DNA of 64,000 bases from the human T2T-CHM13v2.0 reference genome, Homo sapiens, in assembly GCF_009914755.1 (NCBI RefSeq), contig NC_060937.1, one strand, 5' to 3'. Position 1 is the first letter of the stretch. Every line of letters begins with the position of its first letter. A program made the translations under genes and the position numbers. The notes beneath the pieces were generated by a model. That model was not told the DNA's origin. It saw only the letters and a list, made by a program, of their open reading frames with translations, and made no database searches. Below are positions 3,968-57,459 of this stretch, in pieces.

Positions 3968-4644
3968 TGAGAGGTGAAGCCAGCTGGACTTACTGGGTGT
4001 AGTGGGGGCATGAGAACTTTTCTGTCTAGCAGAAGGATTGTAAATGCACCAATCAGCACTCTGTAAAACCACACCAATCATCAGTCTGTGTCTAAAGGAT
4101 TGTAAATGCACCAATCAGCACTCTGTAAAAATGTACCAATCAGCAATCTGTGTCTAGCTAAAGGATTGTAAATGCACCAGTCAGCACTCTGTAAAAACGC
4201 ACCAATCAGTGCTCAGTGTCTAGCTAAAGGATTGTAAATGCACCAATCAGCACTCTGTAAAATGGACCAATCAACACTCTGTAAAATAGACCAATCAGCA
4301 GGACATGGGCGGGGACAAATAAGGGAATAAAAGCTGGCCACCCCAGCCAACAGCGGCAACCCACTTGGGTCCCCTTCCAGGCTGTGGAAGGTTTGTTCTT
4401 TCGCTCTTCAAATCTTGCTGCTGCTCACTGTTTGGGTCAGCACTACTTTTATAAGCTGTACCACTCACTGCGAGGGTCTGCGGCTTCATTCCAGAAGTCA
4501 GCGAGACCACGAACCCACTGGGAAGAACAAACAACTCCGGATGCGCCACCTTTAAGAGCTGTAGCACTCACCACGAGGTCTGCGGCTTCATTCTTGAAGT
4601 CAGCGAGACCAACAACCCACCAGAAGGAATAAATTCCGGACACA
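3968..4644 (+). mobile_element. ERV9/LTR12-family solo LTR
   Basis: Starts tgagaggtgaagccagc, ends ccggacaca (TG...CA). 4-bp TSD agag (3964-3967 / 4645-4648). Tandem accaatcagcactctg units, GC box gggcgggg, AATAAAA TATA-like box, and U5 repeats ggtctgcggcttcattc...gaagtcagcgagacc. Confidence 0.9.
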
Positions 4645-4939
4645 AGAGCAAGAGGGAACCACTTAGCAGAGAACTGTCGTGATCACATTCGCATATTTAC
4701 AAGCTGCTGCTGCTGGGCAGAGAAACAACATGAGGCAGGGGACCCAGTGCATGCTTGAGGGCTAGACTTTTAAGAATTTTTGCTCATTTAAGACTGCTGC
4801 TATGTTAAGGTATGCAGTTAGGGTCCCTGCTGCTCTTGATCATGTGGGATAGAATGTGAATAAACATCACAGAGTCAAATGTGTGTAGGTTAGACTTGTC
4901 TTCCCTGTCCAGCTGTTTTCTTTATTTTCTTTCCATTGA

Positions 4940-5258
<319 letters not shown>

Positions 5259-6334
5259 CGTGAGCCACTGCGCCCGGGTGTTTCTTCAATGTCTTTAAAA
5301 TTTAATTTAATTTAGACTGTGAGCCTTTTTCCTGCTCTGGGCCGGCAGGAGCTTTAAACCTGGCTACTTCTTATCCTTTTTCCCTCCTTCCCCTTTGTTT
5401 AAAGGTCCTGGGTTGGAGGCAGCACCCAGGTAGTAGAGACATCCCTCTGATCCTGTGTCTCAGGTCCACAGCAGTTACCTCTGAGATGTCAAGGGTTTCT
5501 TAGGATCAGCCAGTGTGATTCTGTCTCTGTACCTGGGAACTTGTGCAATCCTGGAGCCCAGCCTAGGCTTGGCTGAAGCTGCTCCTCCCTTTCTAGGCTC
5601 AGCTGGCTTTGAGAGCAGCCAGCACAGAGCCTGCCTACCTCTAGGAACTACAGTCTGCTCCTTTGTGGGCCTGGGAAATTTACTTTGGGGGACTCTCTCA
5701 ATCTCCCTTCTCTTCTCTGTAGTTCCCACAGTGACACCTCTTCTGGCCTGAAACTTTTTTTCCCCTCCATGGGCTGAAGCATTTGGAAACCAAAACCAGG
5801 AAGGGAAGTGTCTTAGCAGCAACTCCTCCTCTGCAGTCACAAAGCTCCCCAGGGAATCATGGAGCCTGCCTGGGGGAGGTAGATGGAGAAAGGGAAAACA
5901 GAAGAAAGACATTGCTATTTCAACAAATGTTTTTTCCATGGTGGCAAGTTGATATTAGTGTTTGGTTTCAGAGCCAAAAGACAGCAGATAAGAGGACTGC
6001 CGGAGGGAGGAGGAGGTGAAGGAGGGAACGAGCACTTGCCTAGTCTGAGCAGCCTTTTCCAGCTGGTGGGGGGTAAGAAGAGATGGTTTTGACGGCTGCA
6101 CATGGACTAGAAGCAGGGAGATTTACAGCATTGCATACTGTGAGCATATCCCACACTTGCATACTTCCAGGAAGGTACTATTGACTATTTCCTTAATAAT
6201 TGTATTTTCAGTGGTTCATGGCCACTTCCAACAGCTTGGGTTATGCCTGACCATTTCTAAGACTCAGTTTGGCCATCCCTCGCATGCTCCCCTGGGCCCT
6301 TGGATAATGAGTCCTAGTTGCTCATATTTAAAAT

Positions 6335-49810: not shown

Positions 49811-50059
49811 AACCCAACAGCTAAGATTCCACATGGAGGCACTGTGAGTACCTTCCCAAGGCCACTCTCAGTTTGTTCCTCCATTACAAAAAGTCCTCTG
49901 ACGGAAGGGAGTGAGAGTCACCTAAGACTCAAATTCAGAAAGCTGTGGCGAAGAAGAAACAGTTGGCACTTTTTGATAATTATGTATTGTACATTTACCA
50001 TGTTTTAGCCCAAATCTCAAAGGTAAACAAGGACAGATTTGTTTACATCTAACCTCCTT

Positions 50060-52540
50060 ACAATTATGTGGTCAATTTTAGAGTAAGTGTGACATGGTGC
50101 TGAGGAGAATGTATATTCTATCAGATTGGGGTGGAGAGTTCTGTAGATGTCTATTAAGTTGGCTTGGTCCAGAGCTGAGTTCAAATCCTGAATATCCTTG
50201 TTAATTTTGTCTCGTTGATCTGTCTAATATTGACAGTGGGGTGTTAAAGTGTCCCACTATTATTGTGTGGGAGTCTAAGTCTCTTTGTAGGTCTCTAAGA
50301 ACTTGCTTTATGAATCTGGGTGCTCCTGTATTAGGTGCATATATATTTAGGATAGTTAGCTCTTCTTGTTGCATTGATCCCTTTACCATTATATAATGCC
50401 CTTTTTTATCTTTTTTGATCTTTGTTGGTTTAAAGTCTGTTTTATCAGAGATTAGGATTGCAACCCTTGTCTTTTTTTTTTTTGGTTTCCATTTGCTTGG
50501 TAAATATTCCTCCGTCCCTTTATTTTGGGCCTATGTGTGTCTTTACACGTGAGATGGGTCTCCTGAATACAGCACACTGATGGGTCTTGATTCTTTATCG
50601 AATTTGCCAGTCTGTGTCTTTTAAGTGGGGTGTTTACCCCGTTTACATTTAAGGTTAATATTGTTATGTGTGAATTTGACCCTGTCATTATGATGCTGGC
50701 TGGTTATTTTGCCTGTTAGTTGATGGAGTTTCTTCATAGTGTTGATGGTAATTACAATTTGGTATGTTTTTGAAGTGACTGGTTACTGATTATTCCTTTC
50801 CAAATTTAGTGCTTCCTTCAGGAGCTCTTGTAAGGCAGGCCTGGTGGTGACACAATCTCTCAGCATTTGCTTGTCTGTCAAGGATTTTATTTCTCCTTCG
50901 CTTATGAAGTTTAGTTTGGCTGGATATGAAATTCTGGGTTGAAAATCCTTTTCTTTAAGAATGTTGAATATTGGCTCCCACTCTCTTCTGGCTTGTAGAG
51001 TTTCTGCTGAGAGATCCACTGTTAAGCTGATGGACTTCCCTTTGTGGCTAACCCAACCTTTCTCTCTTGTCTGCCCTTAACATTTTTTCCTTCATTTCAA
51101 CCTTGGTGAATCATATAATTATGTGTCTTGGGGTTGCTCTTCTTGAGGAGTATCTTTGTGATGTTCTGAGTATTTCCTGAAATTGAATATTGGCCTGTCT
51201 TGCTAGGTTGGGGAAGTTCTCCTGGATAATATCCTGAAGTGTGTTTTCCAACTCGGTTCCATTCTCCCCGTCATTTTCAGGTACACCAATCAAATGTAGG
51301 TTTGGTCTTTTCACATGGTCCCATATTTCTTGGAGGCTTTGTTCATTCCTTTTCATTCTTTTTTCTCTAATGTTGTCTTCATGCTTTATTTCATTAAGTT
51401 GGTCTTCAATCTCTGATATCCTTTCTTCCACTTGATCGATTCAGCTATTGATACTTGTGTATTCTTCACGAAGTTTTCATGCTGTGTTTTCAGCTCCATC
51501 AGGTCATTTATGTTCTTCTCTAGACTGGTTATTCTAGTTAGCAATTCATCTAACCTTTTTTCAAGGTGCTTAGCTTCCTTGCATTGGGTTAGAACATGCT
51601 CCTTTAGCTCAGAAGAGTTTGTTGTTACCCACGTTTTGAAGCCTACTTCTGTCAATTCATCAAATTCATTCTCCATCCAGTTTTGCTCCCTTGCTGGCAA
51701 GGAGTTATGATCCTTTGGAGGACAAGAGGCGTTCTGGTGTTTGGAATTTTCAGCCTTTTTGTGCTGGTTTTCCCTCATCTTCATGGATTTATCTACCTTT
51801 GTTATTTGATGTTGGTGATCTTCAGATGGGACATCTTTTTTGTTGATGTTGATGTTACTGCTTTTGCATGGGCGTCCTTTTTGTTGATGTTGATATTATT
51901 GCATTCTGTTAGTTTTCCTTTTATCAGTCAGGCTCCTCCTCTGCAGGTCTGCTGGAGTTTGCTGGAGGTCCACTCCAGACCCTATTAGCCTGGGTATCAC
52001 CAGTGGAGGCAGCAGAACAGCAAAGATTGCTGCCTGCTCCTTCCTCTGGAAGCTTTGTCCCAGAGGGTCACCCTCCAGATACCAGCCGGAGCTCTCCTGT
52101 ATGAGGTGTCTGTCTGCCCCTGCTGGGAGGTGTCTCCCAGTCAGGAGGCATGGAGTTCAGGGACCCACTTGAGGAGGCAGTCTGACCCTTAGCAGAGCTC
52201 CAGCGCTGTGCTGGGAGATCCACTGCTCTCTTCAGAGCCGACAGGCAGGAATGTTTAAGTCTGCTGAAGCTGCACCCACAGCTGCCCCATCCCCCAGGGT
52301 GCCCTGTCCCAGGGAGATGGGAGTTTTATCTATAAGCCCCTTACTGGGGCTGCTGCCTTTCTTTCAGAGATGCCCTGCCCAGACGGGAGGAATCTAGAGA
52401 GGCAGTCTGGTTACAGCCACTTTGGGGTGCTGCGGTGGGCTCCGCCCAGCTCGAACTTTCCGGTGGCTTTGTTTACACTGTAAGGGGAAAACCACCTACT
52501 CAAGCCTCAGGAATTGCCCCTCCCTCACCAAGCTCGACCA
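50060..52540 (-). mobile_element. L1PA (L1PA7/8-like), 5' half only: partial 5'UTR, frameshifted ORF1, start of ORF2 endonuclease
   Basis: ORF1 pieces 51386-51784, 51111-51431, 50783-51019. ORF2 EN pieces 50452-50688 (MTGSNSHITILTLNVNG) and 50201-50389. 5'UTR ends at cctactcaagcctcag...ccaagctcgacc (52540). No 3'UTR or poly-A. Confidence 0.9.
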
Positions 52541-52894
52541 CCAGGCTGCGGGCGGGCCTGGGGTGCCGGGCCTTCCAAAGCCACCACTTCATGTAGGCCA
52601 GGTGAGCCTCGGAAAAGTCTGGCCCGGTGATGCTCAGGAGTGGTGGGCTGTTGGGAAAGCGCCTCCAGGCCTTGGGGACCATCTCTCTCTGGATGCTGGA
52701 TAGACCCAGCCAGGAGGAGCCTTGGGGAGGGGCCAGGTGCGGACCCAGTGCTTCCCATTGACATAGAGGACTTTGTAGCGGTCCTTGACCTTGGAGCGGA
52801 GGACGGGCCTGGACCGCATATCCTGGTGCTTCTGGGCTCGGGGCAGCACCCTGGCCCGGGGCTAGCCCAGGAGCCAGCTCAGGTAGCTGCCCAT
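52541..52894 (-). pseudogene. POM121-like (POM121L2-type) gene fragment, disrupted and 3'-truncated
   Basis: ATG at 52894 in good Kozak context (gtcATGg). Translation MGSYLSWLLG*PRARVLPRAQKHQDMRSRPVLRSKVKDRYKVLYVNGKHWVRTWPLPKAPPGW, frameshift, then QREMVPKAWRRFPNSPPLLSITGPDFSEAHLAYMKWWLWKARHPRPARSLV. Resembles the recalled POM121L2 N-terminus (MGSFLSK...EAWRRFP...YLKRTIWSLRHPRPIWSPV). Confidence 0.7.
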
Positions 52895-53160
52895 GACAAC
52901 AGTGCAGTGGTAGGGACCTTCCCTTAGAAATTCGGCTTCCAGAAGTTTCCGAAGTCTGCGGCTGGGGCCAAGTGTGCAGAGCTTGGTGACCATTGGAATC
53001 AGGACGCCAGAAACTGTGCAAAGCATCGCGCGCCGGGCACCCTCTGGCCATAGGGTCCCGCAAGGGCTAGGCCGGCGCGTCACGGAATCAGGGATGTCAC
53101 AGGGCGCAGCTGCAGCGGGGGAGGGCAGCACCCAGACCATCTGGGGGACCGGGGAAGCTC
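52895..53160 (-). promoter_or_regulatory. CpG-rich putative promoter/5'UTR of the POM121-like fragment
   Basis: High GC and CpG density compared with the surrounding intron. On the minus strand TGACATC (53093-53099) and TGACG (53078-53082) are CRE-like half sites about 190 nt upstream of the ATG. Confidence 0.45.
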
Positions 53161-53599
53161 AAGCTTCTATCCTTCCCACTGATGGTCCCAGTCACTTGGC
53201 TCTGGGCAGAGGGGGCCTAGCAGCTGCCTCTACTTTTGTGCCTGACCTTTAAAGGTAGAAGATAGAATTTCTGCCAGGTCCTGAAAACTGCAGATGCCTG
53301 TTGACAGAAGGGTGCTGTCTTTGATCAGTGTGAAAATGAACACAATACACTTGGATACTCTTTCAAGGAAAAACAAATCATTTACTCATATCAGTAAAGG
53401 TGATGTGTGTTTCATTCTTCTAGGATGGATGTTAATGTCACTTTTTGCAATTTTGCTGTTAAGAAAATGGAGTCATCAAGTTTTGTTTTAGCACAGGCAA
53501 TGTTGATTTTACGTGGATTTCCCATAATTTCCAGCCTTCCTACATCCATGAATAGATTGTCTGTCTCTGAACACTACTGTCATTTCTCTCGTTTAATTT

Positions 53600-56500
53600 C
53601 TCTTTATTTTTGAAATATTATTTCAGTAGTTTTTGGGGGAAAGGTGATGTTTGGTTATATGTATAAGTTATTTAGTTGTGATTTCTGAGGTCTTGGTGCA
53701 CCCATTATTCAAGCAGTGTACACTGCACCTGATGTGTAATCTTTTATCCCTCACTCACCTCCCACCCATTCCCCAAGTCCCCAAAGTCCATTGTATCATT
53801 CTTATGCCTTTGCATCCTCATAGCTTAGCTCCCACTTATGCGTGAGAACATATGATGTTTACTTTTCCATTCCTGAGTTACTTCGCTTAGAATAATGGTC
53901 TCCAACTTCATCCAGGTTGCTGCGAATGCCATTATTTCATTCCTTTTTAAGGCTCATTAGTATTTCATAGTACATTTGTACCACATTGTCTTTATTCACT
54001 CGTTAATTGATGGGCATTTGGGCTGATTCCATATTTTTGCAATTGCGAATTCTGCTATTATAAACGTGTGTGCAAGTATCTTGTATAATGATTTCTTTTC
54101 CTCTGGGTAGATACCCAGTAGGGTATTGCTGGATCAAATGGTAGTTCTACTTTTAGTTCTTTAAGGAGTCTCCACACTGCTTTCTATAGTGATTTGTACT
54201 AGTTTACATTCCCACCAGCAGTATATAAGTGTTCCCTTTTCACCACATCCACACCAACATCTATTATTTTTTGATTTTTTGATTATGGCATTCTTGCAGG
54301 AGTAAGGTGGTATCACATTGTGGTTTTGATTTGCATCTCCCTGATAATTAGTAATGATGATCATTTTTTCATATGTTTGTTGGCTATTTGTATATTTGAG
54401 AATTGTCTATTCATTTCTTTAGTCTACTTTTTGATGGGATTATTTGTTTTTTTCTTGCTTATTGGTTTGAGTTGCTCATAGATTCTGGATATTAGTCCTT
54501 TGTCAGATGCATAGTTTGCAAAGATTTTCTCCCACTCTGTGGGTTGTCTGTTTACTCTGCTGATTATTGCTTTTACTGTGCAGAAGCTTTTTAGTTGAAT
54601 TAAGTCCCAGCTATTTATCTCTGTTTTTTTTCCATTTGCTTTTGGGTTCGTGGTCATAAAATCCTTGCCTACGATAATGTCTAGAAGGGTTTTTCCGATG
54701 TTATCTTCTAGAATTTTTGTGGTTTCAGGTCTTAGATTTAAGTCTTTGATCCATCTTGAGTTAATTTTTGTATAATGTGAGAGATGAAGGTCCAATTTCA
54801 TTATTCTTGCCAATTATCCCAGCACCATTTGTTGAATATGGTGTGCTTTCTCCAGTTTATGTTTTTGTTTGCGTTATTAAAGATCAGTTGGTTGTAGGTA
54901 TTTGGCTTTATTTCTGGGTTCTTTATTCTGTTCCATTGGTCTGTGAGCCTATTTTCATACCAGCACCATACTGTTTTGGTAACTTTAGCCTTATGGTATA
55001 GTTTGAAGTCAGGTAATGTGATGCCTCCAGATTTGTTCTTTTTGCTTAGCCTTACTTTGGGTATGTGGATTCTTTTTTGGTTCTATATGAATTTTAGAAT
55101 TGTTCTAGTTCTGTGAAGAATGATGGTGGTATATTGATGGAAATTGCCTTGAATTTGTAGATTGCTTTTGGCAGTGTGGTCATTTTTACAATATTGATTC
55201 TACCCATCCATGAGCATGGCATATGTTTCCATTTGTTTGTGTCATCTGTGATTTTTTTTGGCAGTGTTTTGTAATTTTCCTGGTAGAGGTCTTTCCCCTC
55301 TTTGGTTAGGTGTAATATACTCCTGAATGTTCTGTTGTGTTTATTTGTTTGTTTGTTTTGCAGCTGTTGTAAAAGGGGTTGAGTTCTTGATTTTATTTTC
55401 AGCTTGGTTGCTGTTGGTGTATAGCAGTGCTACTGATCTGTGTATATTGATTTTGTATCCTGAAACATTGCTGAATTCATTTATCAGTTCTAAGAGCTTT
55501 GAGGATGAGGCTTTAGGGTTTTCTAGGTACACCATTATATCATTGGTGAACAGTGACAGTTTGACTTCGTCTTTACTGATTTGGATGCCTTTTATTTCTT
55601 TCACTTGTCTGATTGCTCTGGTTTGGACTTCCAGTACTATGTTGAAGAGAAGTGGTGAAAGTGGGCATCCTTGACTTGTTCCAGTTCTCAGAGGGAATGC
55701 TTTTAGCTTTTCCCCATTCAGTATAATGTTGGCTGTGGCGTTGTCATAGATGGCTTTTATTACCTTAAAGTATGTCCTTTCTGTGCTGATTTTGCTGAGG
55801 GTTTTAATCATAAAGGGATGGTGGATTTTGTCAAATGCTTTTTCTGTGTCTATTGAGATGATCATGTTATTTTTGTTTTTAATTCTGTTTATGTCATATA
55901 TCACATTTATTAACTTGCTTATGTTAAACCACCCCTGCATCCCTACTATGAAACGCACTTGATCATGGAGGATTACCTTTTTTGTATGCTGTTTGATTCC
56001 ATTAGCTAGTATTTTGTTGAGGATTTTTGTATCTACGTTCATCAGGAAGATTGGTCTGTAATGTTTCTTTTTTGTGATGTTCTTTCCTGGTTTTAGTATT
56101 AGGGTGATACTGGCTTCATAGAATGATTTAGGGAGGATTCCCTCTTTGTCTGTCTTTTGAATTAGTGTCAATAGGATTTGTACCAGTTCTTCTTTGAAGG
56201 TCTCATAGAATTCAACTGTGAACTCGTCTGGTCCTGGACTTTTTCTTGTTGGCAATTTTTTTTATTATCATTTCAATCTTGCTGCTTATTACTGGTCTGT
56301 TCGGAATTTAATTTCATTGTGGTTTAATCTAGGAATGTTGTATATTTCCAGGAACTTATTTATCTCCTCTAGATTTTCTACTATGTGCATGCAAAGGTGT
56401 TCATAGTAGCCTGGAATGATCTTTTGTATTTCTGTGGTAGCAGTTATAATATCCCCTGTTTTGTTTCTAATCTAGTTTATTTGGATCTTCCCTCCTCTTT

Positions 56501-57380
56501 TCTTGGCTAATCTTGCTAATGGTCTATCAATTTTGTCTATCTTTTCAAAGACCTAGCTTTTGTTTCATTTATCTTTTGTATAATTTTTTCTTACAATTGT
56601 ATTTAGTTCTGCTCTGATCTTTGTTAGTTCTTTTCTTCTCTGGGTTTGGGTTTGGTTTGTTCTTGTTTCTCTAGTTTCTTGAGGTGTGACCTTAGATTGT
56701 CTGTTTGTCCTTTTTCCAATTTTTTGATGCAGGCACTGCTTTTGCTGTATCCCAAAGCTTTTCATAGGTTGTGTCACTGTTATTCAGTTGAAACAATTTT
56801 TTAATTTCTATCTTGATTTCATTATTGATGCAACAATCTTTCAAGAGCAGGTTGTTTAATTTCCATGTATTTGCCTGCTTTTGAGGGTTCCTTTTCAAAT
56901 TGATTTCCAGTTTTATTCCACTGTAGTTTGAGAGAGTACTTGATATAATTTCAATTTTCTGAAGTTTATCGAGACTTCTTTTGTGGCCTATCATATGCTC
57001 TATTTTGAAGAATGTTCCATGTGCTGATGAATGTACATTCTGTAGTTGTTGGGTAGAATGTTCTGTAAATATCTGTTAAGTCCATTTGTTCTAGGGTATA
57101 GTTTAAGTCCATTGTTGTTTTGTTGACTTTCTGTCTTCATGACCTGTCTAGTGCTGTCAGTGGGGTACTGAAGTCTCCCACTATTATTTTATTGCAGTCT
57201 ATGTCATATGTCATTTTTTTTAGTTTTAGTAGTAATTATTTTATAAATTTGGGAGCTCCAGTGTTAGAGATATATATATATATATTTAGGGTTGTGATAT
57301 TTTCCTGTTGGACTAGTCCTTTTATCATTATATAATCTTCCTGTTTGTCTTTTTTAACTGCTTTTGTTTTAAAGTCTGTT
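53600..57380 (-). mobile_element. L1PB1-like 5'-truncated LINE-1 (ORF2 remnant plus 3'UTR)
   Basis: L1PB-type 3' end (gtttttgggggaaaggtgatgtttggtta...ccccaagtccccaaagtccattgtatcattc). RT ORF 55341-56255 and other ORF2 pieces. Ends within the EN region at about 57380. Confidence 0.88.
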
Positions 57381-57459
57381 TCTCTAGACTTTAAACAATA
57401 AAGTCTGATTGTTTAAAGTCTGATATAACAGACTTTATATCAGATAAACAATTAGCTAG

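What the first reader, a model, noticed from the sequence alone, without database searches (positions are those of the whole stretch)
52541..53160. CpG-rich POM121-like gene relic hidden antisense in a MTUS2 intron
Seen: a ~620-bp GC/CpG-rich island between two AT-rich L1s. Stitching the minus-strand frames gives MGSYLS (an MGxxxS myristoylation-type start in good Kozak context), a TAG at codon 11, a frameshift near 52690-52700, then AWRRFP...YMKWWLWKARHPRPARSLV. Knowledge: this motif order matches my recollection of the N-terminus of POM121L2-type intronless POM121 paralogues, which lack the transmembrane segment and are often testis-expressed. Inference: this is a decayed member of that family, possibly unannotated. 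Its retained CpGs suggest germline hypomethylation or recent activity, and it may be intact in other mammals.
Basis: partly seen in the sequence, partly recalled or inferred. Interest (0 to 1): 0.8.

Follow-up and report, generated by a model that had tools for sequence, protein, structure and literature searches.

The report
Dead POM121-like gene copy in MTUS2
A broken and truncated copy of a gene derived from the nuclear-pore protein POM121 lies backwards inside an MTUS2 intron; it is an ordinary duplicated pseudogene, although a sister copy 260 kb away still has an open reading frame.

Summary
Window 52541-52894 (minus strand) keeps the first ~119 codons of an intronless POM121-derived gene that lacks the transmembrane part. 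Three lesions kill it:
- TGG>TAG at codon 11 (52864-52862)
- a 1-bp deletion between 52700 and 52699
- a 1.74-kb deletion, joined near 52541, that removed the rest of the ORF, including the only part the Pfam POM121 model recognises

A family profile built without any close relative hits exactly these two frames (E=8e-18 and 5e-5) among 2149 window ORFs.

The relic is not a lone insertion. It is one of four chr13 copies (83-87% identical over the 620 bp) of a block of at least 7 kb that also carries both flanking L1 fragments. Two older copies lie on Xp22.

On a 41-row tree the chr13 and X copies form a sister lineage of POM121L12 found across placental mammals. POM121L2 is the next relative out.

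CpG observed/expected is 0.46 overall and 0.62 in the 5' 266 bp. The window copy kept only 12 of 28 inferred ancestral CpGs, so protection from germline methylation is not supported.

Outside the window, the copy at chr13:28,001,353-28,002,096 has an intact 247-codon ORF. RefSeq lists nothing at the relic; GENCODE could not be checked.

The parts
52541..52894 (-). Retained N-terminal ~119 codons of the POM121L12/POM121L2-like ORF (MGSYLS...RHPRPARSLV), disabled
   Evidence: Family profile E=8.2e-18 and 4.6e-5. tblastn with POM121L2 gives E=1e-5.
52862..52864 (-). Premature TAG at codon 11. The other chr13 copies and one X copy read TGG here.
   Evidence: Alignment of the six copies; coordinates.
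52699..52700 (-). Site of a 1-bp deletion (frameshift at about codon 66)
52536..52545 (-). Junction of a 1744-bp deletion relative to paralogue L008 (its bases 3997-5741). The deletion joins the ORF directly to the interior of the L1 5'UTR. A shared CCTGG lies at the junction.
52895..53160 (-). GC-rich leader upstream of the conserved Met (GC 63%, CpG o/e 0.62). Its in-frame translation still resembles the POM121 sequence just before MGSYLGK (KLLEAEFLREGP... against NLLEPRTLLEGP...).
   Evidence: The pairwise match is weak (E=0.64). Shared by all six copies.
53161..53594 (-). AT-rich upstream block belonging to the same ancestral unit. It is shared with the chr13 and X copies, and 53283-53562 is shared with the region about 1 kb upstream of the human POM121L12 ATG.
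   Evidence: Only 7 loci in the genome hold it.
50057..52535 (-). Downstream L1 fragment: the 3' part of the 5'UTR, ORF1, and ORF2 up to about residue 211. Part of the duplicated block.
   Evidence: Pfam Tnp_22_trimer, Transposase_22, Tnp_22_dsRBD and Exo_endo_phos. ORF2p residues 157-211. Shared with the paralogues.
53595..57381 (-). Upstream L1 fragment: ORF2 from about residue 77 to the 3' end, whose A-rich tail abuts the unit. Part of the duplicated block.
   Evidence: RVT_1 E=1.5e-33. ORF2p residues 77-126 at 57239-57412. L1 3' end read. Shared with the paralogues.

Best explanation
The feature is a non-functional duplicated pseudogene.

**Origin (inferred).** An ancestral retrogene was made from spliced POM121 mRNA. 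It lacked the transmembrane exon and started at the internal Met of MGSY(L)S/G. It gave rise to the POM121L12-type genes. One sister lineage of POM121L12 is represented in humans only by two copies on Xp22 and four copies in and beside MTUS2 on chr13.

**Spread on chr13 (shown).** The chr13 copies spread as DNA, not as RNA, because they share a block of at least 7 kb that includes the two flanking L1 fragments.

**Timing (inferred).** The duplications date to early catarrhine evolution, about 30-45 million years ago. This rests on K2P distances of 0.08-0.09 between copies and a substitution rate I recalled rather than measured.

**Decay of the window copy (shown).**
- a nonsense change at codon 11
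- a 1-bp frameshift
- a 1.74-kb deletion that removed the C-terminal ~128 codons and the start of the neighbouring L1 5'UTR

**GC and CpG richness (inferred).** It is inherited from the GC-rich parental coding sequence and is fading. It is not maintained.

**Present role (inferred).** The copy cannot make a POM121-like protein. It most likely does nothing beyond being intron sequence of MTUS2.
For: **Family.**
- The profile search hits only the two window frames.
- tblastn with POM121L2 matches the window at E=1e-5.
- PF15229 scores above its cut-off in paralogue L009.
- Named homologues ('POM121-like protein 12/2') exist in many mammals.

**Retrogene origin.** The intact paralogue ORF is colinear with five separate POM121 exons on chr7 without introns. 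The window part spans the first of those exon junctions.

**Copy number.** Exactly six loci hold the 620 bp.

**DNA-level duplication.** Window 50057-57381 aligns with L008, L009 and L010 at 81-90% identity, including both L1 fragments.

**Lesions.**

**Tree.** The window copy lies inside a catarrhine chr13 clade (99/93), next to L009 and L010 (93/95). That clade lies inside a sister clade of POM121L12 (99/94).

**Neutral decay.**
- dN/dS against the intact copy is 1.01.
- 12 of 28 ancestral CpGs are kept. CpG loss runs 4.3 times the non-CpG rate, against 4.9-12.3 times in the flanks, where only 4-7 ancestral CpGs per copy could be counted.

**Annotation.** The hub's RefSeq table lists no gene here other than MTUS2.
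Against: - The window's own frames give no Pfam hit. The region the model covers is deleted, so Pfam membership rests on the paralogues.
- A genome search with the 224-aa L009 frame did not reach POM121L2 or POM121L12. The N-terminal similarity is therefore weak at single-sequence level.
- The 5' 266 bp still has CpG o/e 0.62, and the upstream block is 89-95% identical to its chr13 sisters. Residual promoter activity is not excluded.
- No expression or methylation data could be consulted.
- The dating uses a substitution rate recalled from memory, not measured here.
Confidence: 0.9

Rival explanations
1. The relic is dead as a coding gene but still works as a promoter or transcription start. 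Its 5' CpG-richer stretch and the upstream block it shares with POM121L12 would drive an antisense, probably testis-biased, non-coding transcript inside MTUS2.
For: - CpG o/e is 0.62 over 52895-53160.
- The upstream block 53161-53620 is 89-95% identical to the chr13 sisters, 80-83% to the X copies, and 71% to the POM121L12 upstream region.
- Mouse Pom121l12 and Pom121l2 are described as genes enriched in male reproductive organs (PMC13253961, passages read).
Against: - The window copy kept only 7 of 16 ancestral CpGs in the 5' part, against 11 of 16 (L008) and 10 of 14 (L009) in the better-kept sisters.
- RefSeq lists no transcript or functional element here (hub table).
- The identity of the AT-rich block is compatible with slow neutral decay of CpG-poor DNA. 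This is my estimate, not a test.
- No expression data were seen.
Confidence: 0.08
2. The GC-rich stretch is simply the 5' end of the adjoining L1, either an old 5'UTR variant or an L1 5' transduction. The POM121-like motifs would then be chance.
For: - It abuts a minus-strand L1 5'UTR in the same orientation with no gap.
- That L1 5'UTR is also GC-rich, at 55-60%.
Against: - Only six loci in the genome hold the 620 bp, whereas an L1 5'UTR type would be present in many more.
- In the sister copies 975-2566 bp separate it from the L1 part that abuts it here.
- The X copies have it with no L1 next to it.
- The profile E-value is 8e-18.
Confidence: 0.01
3. It is an independent processed pseudogene, retrotransposed straight into this MTUS2 intron from POM121, POM121L2 or POM121L12 mRNA, rather than a DNA-level duplicate.
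For: It is intronless, and it lies between L1s in AT-rich DNA, a typical landing site.
Against: - Homology with the other chr13 copies runs several kb beyond the gene on both sides, through two L1 fragments.
- No poly(A) tail marks the end of the X-to-chr13 homology.
- The tree places it among the chr13 copies, not with POM121, POM121L2 or POM121L12.
Confidence: 0.01

Closest known systems
POM121L12 (human 7p12, single-exon gene; its chr7 ORF read here is 296 aa)
   Same: - It is the sister lineage on the tree: the joint group has 100/100 support.
- Both share the ...PDPC.RET.L.ALSQC.KG...F.GPLWFE... block in the sister copies.
- The loci share a 288-bp upstream non-coding block at 71% identity. 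They therefore descend from one ancestral locus by DNA duplication.
   Different: - Human POM121L12 is intact and annotated; this copy is dead.
- Anthropoid POM121L12 has lost the MGSYLS-type start (MSRSPS), and its N-terminus barely aligns with the window (a 15-aa match, E=0.44).
- Pteropus, Equus asinus, Marmota, Sapajus, Saguinus and Homo each have members of both clades, so the two are paralogues, not orthologues.
POM121L2 (human 6p22, single-exon ORF)
   Same: - It is the best named human match for the part retained in the window: MGSFLSK...EAWRRFP...LRHPRPIWSPV, 31.5% over 162 aa, E=1e-5.
- It has no transmembrane segment and the same Met start.
   Different: - It falls outside the POM121L12-like group on the tree.
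- It is far longer: its stop-to-stop frame on chr6 is 1140 aa.
- It lacks the shared upstream block; only a 21-bp match was found, inside the ORF.
NPAP1 / NPAP1L / UPF0607 retrogenes derived from POM121 (Neumann et al. 2014, PMC3942032; abstract, background, methods and term-matched passages read)
   Same: They have the same kind of origin: intronless copies of POM121 that lost the transmembrane exon, some of them pseudogenised in primates. NPAP1 also starts with an MGNLLS-type Met.
   Different: They form a different branch of the family. The paper does not contain 'chromosome 13', 'MTUS2', 'X chromosome', 'POM121L2' or 'POM121L12' (term searches). The chr13 and X copies were not found by the NPAP1-type matches of PF15229, except for the weak L009 hit.
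POM121L1P-type copies on chr22, chr5 and chr6 (PF15229 hits of 190-203 bits)
   Same: They belong to the same Pfam family, and many copies were spread by segmental duplication.
   Different: Their open frames do not contain the N-terminal MGSYLS...AWRRFP...RHPR part that is all the window copy retains. They score about 200 bits on PF15229, against 29-32 bits for the chr13 lineage.

Membership tests
POM121 family (Pfam PF15229) | Match to the Pfam model above its gathering score (27 bits) | tested here: not met
   The four window frames gave no POM121 hit. The part the model covers lies in the 1744 bp deleted from this copy. Paralogue L009:5531-5827(-) scores 31.9 bits, E=1.5e-7, and 29.1 bits in the whole-genome scan.
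POM121 family (POM121L2/POM121L12-type N-terminus) | Significant similarity of the retained part to the N-terminal region of family members that the Pfam model does not cover | tested here: met
   A profile of 26 family rows, with no anthropoid chr13-type or X-type rows, scores E=8.2e-18 on 52503-53066(-) and 4.6e-5 on 52637-52861(-). The next best of 2149 ORFs is 0.67. tblastn with POM121L2 gives E=1e-5.
POM121-derived retrogenes | Colinear with spliced parental exons, with no introns | tested here: met
   The POM121 exons on chr7 were read. The intact paralogue ORF covers five of them without interruption. The window part runs from MGSYLS (first of these exons) to RHPRP..SLV (second) without an intron.
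POM121-derived retrogenes | No transmembrane segment | tested here: inconclusive
   Only a Kyte-Doolittle scan was run. The maximum 19-residue mean is 1.70 in the window's in-frame stretch upstream of the conserved Met (MLCTVSGVLIPMVTKLCTL) and 1.26 in L008. That stretch lies outside the conserved ORF and is not conserved. No dedicated predictor was used.
Sister lineage of POM121L12 (chr13/X type) | Falls inside that clade on a family tree | tested here: met
   Tree of 41 rows and 258 columns: clade support 99/94, catarrhine chr13 subclade 99/93, window with L009 and L010 93/95. The window row fills only 43% of the columns.
CpG island (length >200 bp, GC >50%, observed/expected >0.6; criteria recalled from memory) | All three criteria over the stated interval | tested here: not met
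   52541-53160: GC 64%, o/e 0.46. Only 52895-53160 (266 bp) passes, with GC 63% and o/e 0.62.
Segmental-duplication copy (duplicated pseudogene) | Homology with paralogous loci extends beyond the gene into unrelated flanking sequence | tested here: met
   Window 50057-57381 aligns with L008, L009 and L010, including two L1 fragments.

The most novel reading that the evidence does not exclude
The chr13 and X copies belong to an unnamed paralogue lineage of POM121L12 found across placental mammals. Its surviving human member, the intact 247-codon ORF at T2T chr13:28,001,353-28,002,096 (minus strand, 260 kb from the relic and just upstream of MTUS2), would be a real but unrecognised protein-coding gene. 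Its product would be a short POM121 derivative that lacks the transmembrane part and has an MGxxxS N-terminus of the N-myristoylation type.

The dead window copy keeps the family's upstream block at 89-95% identity to its chr13 sisters. It might therefore still start antisense transcripts inside MTUS2.
Probability: 0.15. Interest if true: 0.5.

Novelty: new member of a known kind. Interest (0 to 1): 0.25.

Why it matters
**For the window.** This removes a candidate 'hidden gene'. The interval is a dead duplicate, and its CpG content is a fading inheritance rather than a sign of activity.

**For annotation.** Four chr13 loci and two X loci are POM121L12-like copies that the RefSeq table for this window does not list.

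**For gene-family history.** Species that carry both types show a second lineage of POM121L12-type genes in placental mammals, which automated pipelines label 'POM121-like protein 12' or '2' without distinction. In humans only one copy of this lineage keeps an open frame. That copy is worth checking in testis transcript and ribosome-profiling data.

**Limit on expectations.** Mouse knockouts of Pom121l12 and Pom121l2 are fertile (PMC13253961, passages read), so a strong phenotype is not expected.

Tried and rejected
- **Pfam on the window frames.** Four frames gave no POM121 hit; the only match was a sub-threshold Synthase_beta at E=0.12. The deletion explains this.
- **Whole-genome search with the 224-aa L009 frame.** It found only the six loci at E<1e-4. 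The remaining hits had E>=0.48, and POM121L2 and POM121L12 were not reached.
- **L1 5'UTR idea.** My own first suspicion, from recalled L1 sequence, was that the stretch is part of the L1 5'UTR. Rejected.
- **Single 'circularly permuted' L1.** I considered that the duplicated block is one L1 with matching end points. Rejected: the upstream piece starts near ORF2p residue 77 and the downstream piece ends near residue 211. In L008 and L010 the downstream L1 runs on past the window's low end, and in L009 and L010 the upstream L1 runs on past its high end.
- **Poly(A) tail or target-site duplications at the end of the X-to-chr13 homology.** None is convincing; similarity continues past a short A-run.
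- **dN/dS between copies.** Values of 0.4-1.0 do not settle whether the intact sister copy is constrained.
- **Rfam on 51500-54500.** No match at E<=0.1.
- **Literature.**
  - 'POM121L13P': 0 papers.
  - 'MTUS2' with 'POM121': 12 papers hold both terms. I saw only the titles and abstract starts of the 10 listed, and none of those titles concerns this locus.
  - POM121L14P is listed among chr6 genes in one paper's table. POM121L15P appears in two papers on the 22q11.2 deletion region (listing only).
  - No paper combined POM121L2 or POM121L12 with myristoylation; one paper holds NPAP1 and myristoylation and was not read.
- **Further flanks of the paralogues.** As a result the full extent of the duplicated blocks at the other loci is not mapped.

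Full report
**What is in the sequence**

The window is T2T chr13:28,210,001-28,274,000 (hub note, confirmed). On the minus strand an ATG sits at 52894-52892 in the context GTCATGG. It opens MGSYLSWLLG, followed by a TAG at 52864-52862.
- A second frame (52634-52861) continues PRARVLPRAQKHQDMRSRPVLRSKVKDRYKVLYVNGKHWVRTWPLPKAPPGW.
- A third frame (52500-53066) holds REMVPKAWRRFPNSPPLLSITGPDFSEAHLAYMKWWLWKARHPRPARSLV.

GC is 64%, with 29 CpGs in 620 bp. Observed/expected CpG is 0.46 overall, 0.62 in 52895-53160 and 0.35 in the ORF part. The GC-rich zone actually runs from about 51900 to 53250, but its lower half is CpG-poor (0.06-0.32).

**The flanks**

The lower half of the GC-rich zone is the 5'UTR of a minus-strand L1.
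- An ORF1-like frame starts near 51783.
- Pfam finds Tnp_22_trimer, Transposase_22 and Tnp_22_dsRBD at 50786-51440 and the start of the endonuclease at 50455-50703.
- PDB L1 ORF2p chains place 50217-50055 at residues 157-211.

On the high side there is a minus-strand L1 3' part.
- RVT_1 lies at 55344-56261 (E=1.5e-33).
- ORF2p residues 77-126 lie at about 57394-57239.
- Its A-rich 3' end abuts the unit near 53595.

So 'between two L1s' is correct. In all, 4 of the 20 flank ORFs scanned carried L1 domains.

**Copy number and the duplicated block**

The 620 bp occurs at six loci only:
- chr13 28.00 Mb (87% identical), 28.26 Mb (the window), 28.43 Mb (83%) and 28.56 Mb (85%), all on the minus strand
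- chrX 15.229 Mb and 15.286 Mb (68-70% identical)

Homology among the chr13 loci is not confined to the gene-like part. Window 50057-52535 and 52539-57381 align with the others at 81-90% identity, including both L1 fragments. The window's two ends are specific to this copy: in L008 and L010 the downstream L1 runs on past 50057, and in L009 and L010 the upstream L1 runs on past 57381.

Between 52535 and 52539 the other copies hold 975 bp (L010), 1744 bp (L008) and 2566 bp (L009, with Alu-like inserts). The window copy therefore carries a deletion of 1744 bp relative to L008. Its junction lies next to a CCTGG found on both sides.

The X copies share only 52540-53594 plus the part deleted from the window.

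**Family identity**

The window's own frames give no Pfam POM121 hit, and there is a reason for that. The model covers the part from ...PDPC.KET... onward, which lies in the deleted 1744 bp.

In paralogue L009 that part scores 31.9 bits (E=1.5e-7, cut-off 27). It is the only member of this cluster among the 129 genome matches of PF15229.

The human POM121L2 and POM121L12 ORFs were read from the same assembly. By tblastn they match L008 and L009 at E=2e-25 to 2e-22. POM121L2 matches the window itself at 31.5% over 162 aa (E=1e-5). POM121L12 matches the window over only 15 aa.

I then built a profile from 26 family rows: POM121, POM121L2, POM121L12 and non-anthropoid relatives. All anthropoid chr13-type and X-type rows were left out. 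Searched against all 2149 window ORFs of 20 aa or more, it hits 52503-53066(-) at E=8.2e-18 and 52637-52861(-) at E=4.6e-5. The next best is E=0.67.

The POM121 exons on chr7 are separate, yet the L008 ORF is colinear with five of them. The lineage is therefore a processed retrogene that begins at the internal Met of POM121 (...LLLMGSYLGK).

**State of the six copies**

| Copy | State |
|---|---|
| L008 (chr13:28,001,353-28,002,096, minus) | Intact: 247 codons, MGNYLS...PPREL |
| Window | TGG>TAG at codon 11; 1-bp deletion at about codon 66; truncated after about codon 119 |
| L010 | TGA at codon 19; its own 1113-bp deletion, starting 12 bp from the window's |
| L009 | A +1 and a -1 frameshift, plus a TAG |
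| Both X copies | Several frameshifts; a shared 132-bp gap removing the PDPC...PLWFE block |

**Placement in the family**

A database search with the L008 ORF returned 36 proteins at E<=0.001.
- They are named 'POM121-like protein 12' or '2' in orangutan (89% identical) and macaque (87%).
- Marmoset, tamarin and capuchin have several per chromosome (64-68%).
- Further hits come from lemurs, a bat, armadillo, carnivores and rabbit.

The database is clustered at 90% identity, so the absence of a 100% human entry is not proof that none exists. A search with human POM121L12 returned 69 proteins at E<=1e-5.

A 41-row tree with 258 columns, rooted on POM121, gives the following:
- POM121L2 rows fall outside a 100/100 group.
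- That group splits into a POM121L12 clade (84/81; human chr7, gibbon, New World monkeys, tree shrew, rodents, carnivores, whale, donkey, bats).
- Its sister clade (99/94) holds armadillo, Pteropus, a second donkey protein, lemurs, rabbit, marmot, and the anthropoid X-type and chr13-type rows.
- Pteropus, Equus asinus, Marmota, Sapajus, Saguinus and Homo appear in both clades, so the two are paralogues.
- All four human chr13 copies sit in a catarrhine clade (99/93), apart from the platyrrhine copies. The window groups with L009 and L010 (93/95).
- The window row fills only 43% of the columns, so its exact position among the three is soft.

**Age**

In 3.2 kb of non-coding flank the chr13 copies differ by K2P 0.078-0.094, in a star-like pattern. 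In the 620-bp region X against chr13 is 0.32-0.41, or 0.25-0.36 without CpG sites. X against X is 0.09.

With a rate of about 1.0-1.2e-9 per site per year, which I recalled rather than measured, the chr13 burst falls at roughly 33-47 million years ago. This fits the tree, where the duplications come after the split from platyrrhines.

**CpG decay**

I took a CpG as ancestral when at least two of the other three chr13 copies have it.

| Copy | Ancestral CpGs kept |
|---|---|
| Window | 12 of 28 (10 of the 16 losses are TG/CA) |
| L008 | 16 of 25 |
| L009 | 14 of 21 |
| L010 | 10 of 32 |

The window's CpG loss is 4.3 times its non-CpG change rate. In the flanks the ratio is 4.9-12.3, where only 4-7 ancestral CpGs per copy could be counted. 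This does not support protection from germline methylation. The richness is better read as inheritance from GC-rich parental coding sequence.

**Selection**

Pairwise dN/dS over the shared 119 codons is 1.01 for window against L008 and 0.4-0.73 for other pairs. L008 against L009 over 244 codons is 0.70. These values indicate relaxed or no constraint.

By my own rough count the three dead sisters carry 6 small disabling lesions in 1467 bp. That predicts about 3 in 741 bp, so an intact L008 has a chance of a few per cent per copy. With four copies this is not compelling.

**Upstream block**

Window 53283-53562(-) matches chr7:53,196,290-53,196,570, about 1 kb upstream of the POM121L12 ATG, at 71% over 288 bp. 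The 460 bp at 53161-53620 occurs at only seven loci: four on chr13 (89-95% to the sister copies), two on X (80-83%) and chr7. Conserved blocks are visible in the alignment.

This shows that the POM121L12 locus and the chr13/X loci descend from one ancestral locus by DNA duplication. Whether the block is a promoter is not tested. Its identity levels are compatible with slow neutral decay of AT-rich, CpG-poor DNA, by my estimate.

**Start motif**

At the conserved Met, 35 of 41 family rows fit a permissive N-myristoylation-type pattern recalled from PROSITE. The exceptions are anthropoid POM121L12, one cat protein and the 5'-deleted X copy. I cut the rows at that Met myself, and several predicted proteins are annotated with upstream starts, so this is a lead and not a test.

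**Known biology and print**

Neumann et al. 2014 (PMC3942032; abstract, background, methods and term-matched passages read) describe the POM121-derived retrogenes NPAP1, NPAP1L and UPF0607. Term searches of its text found no 'chromosome 13', 'MTUS2', 'X chromosome', 'POM121L2' or 'POM121L12'. Its supplementary tables were not opened.

Mouse Pom121l12 and Pom121l2 knockout males are fertile (PMC13253961, passages read).

Searches for 'POM121L13P' (0 papers), for 'MTUS2' with 'POM121' (12 papers; only the 10 listed titles and abstract starts seen) and for other POM121L pseudogene names turned up nothing that describes these loci. Rfam finds nothing in 51500-54500.

**Verdict**

This is a correctly spotted, correctly named, but ordinary pseudogene. 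It is one dead copy in a small family, spread by segmental duplication, of a POM121L12-sister retrogene.

Two things are worth a note beyond the window: the intact sister ORF at chr13:28.00 Mb, and the fact that this lineage is distinct from POM121L12.

Noticed in passing
outside the window: T2T chr13:28,001,353-28,002,096 (-) = L008:5357-6097: A sister copy keeps an intact 247-codon ORF (MGNYLS...PPREL) with ATG context GTCATGG. Predicted orangutan and macaque proteins are 89% and 87% identical. No 100% human protein appeared in the search, but the database is clustered at 90%, so this proves nothing. dN/dS against the dead sisters is 0.6-1.0, so constraint is unproven.
   Followed up: partly
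window 53283-53562 (-), and L055:1291-1571 (chr7:53,196,290-53,196,570): An AT-rich non-coding block upstream of the relic is shared with the region about 1 kb upstream of POM121L12 (71% over 288 bp). Only seven loci in the genome hold it. It may be a promoter or a 5' exon common to the family.
   Followed up: partly
L011 (chrX:15,225,000-15,234,999) and L012 (chrX:15,281,000-15,290,999): Two Xp22 copies lie 56 kb apart and are 9% diverged from each other. They share a 132-bp gap that removes the PDPC...PLWFE block. A predicted 228-aa tamarin protein (P0015) lacks the same block and groups with them on the tree (99/97).
   Followed up: partly
L010:6030-6051 against window 52536-52545: The 28.43-Mb copy has its own 1113-bp deletion, starting only 12 bp from the start of the window's 1744-bp deletion. 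It ends just before the very 5' end of the neighbouring L1 (a GGCAAGATGGCCGAATAG-type start). This could be recurrent breakage or nested events; it is unresolved.
   Followed up: partly
window 57381-57441: At the high end of the shared block the window shows short local repeats (TTATATCAGAC / AAACAGACTTTAAA-type words in both orientations) where L009 and L010 simply continue the L1 ORF2. It looks like a rearrangement scar at the duplication breakpoint.
   Followed up: no
G000 chr5 (21.49-21.59, 34.31-34.43, 70.46-71.71, 100.0-100.9 Mb) and chr22 (18.95-25.12 Mb): The PF15229 scan gave 129 matches. Most lie in large tandem or segmentally duplicated arrays on chr5 and chr22, with open frames of up to 1606 aa.
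   Followed up: no
window 52865-53158 (-): The in-frame stretch upstream of the conserved Met holds another ATG (MLCTVSGVLIPMVTKLCTL...) with a Kyte-Doolittle 19-residue mean of 1.70. Macaque and marmoset gene models start at the homologous Met. SPAAAAP in this stretch faintly recalls the POM121 membrane segment, which I know only from memory and did not test.
   Followed up: no
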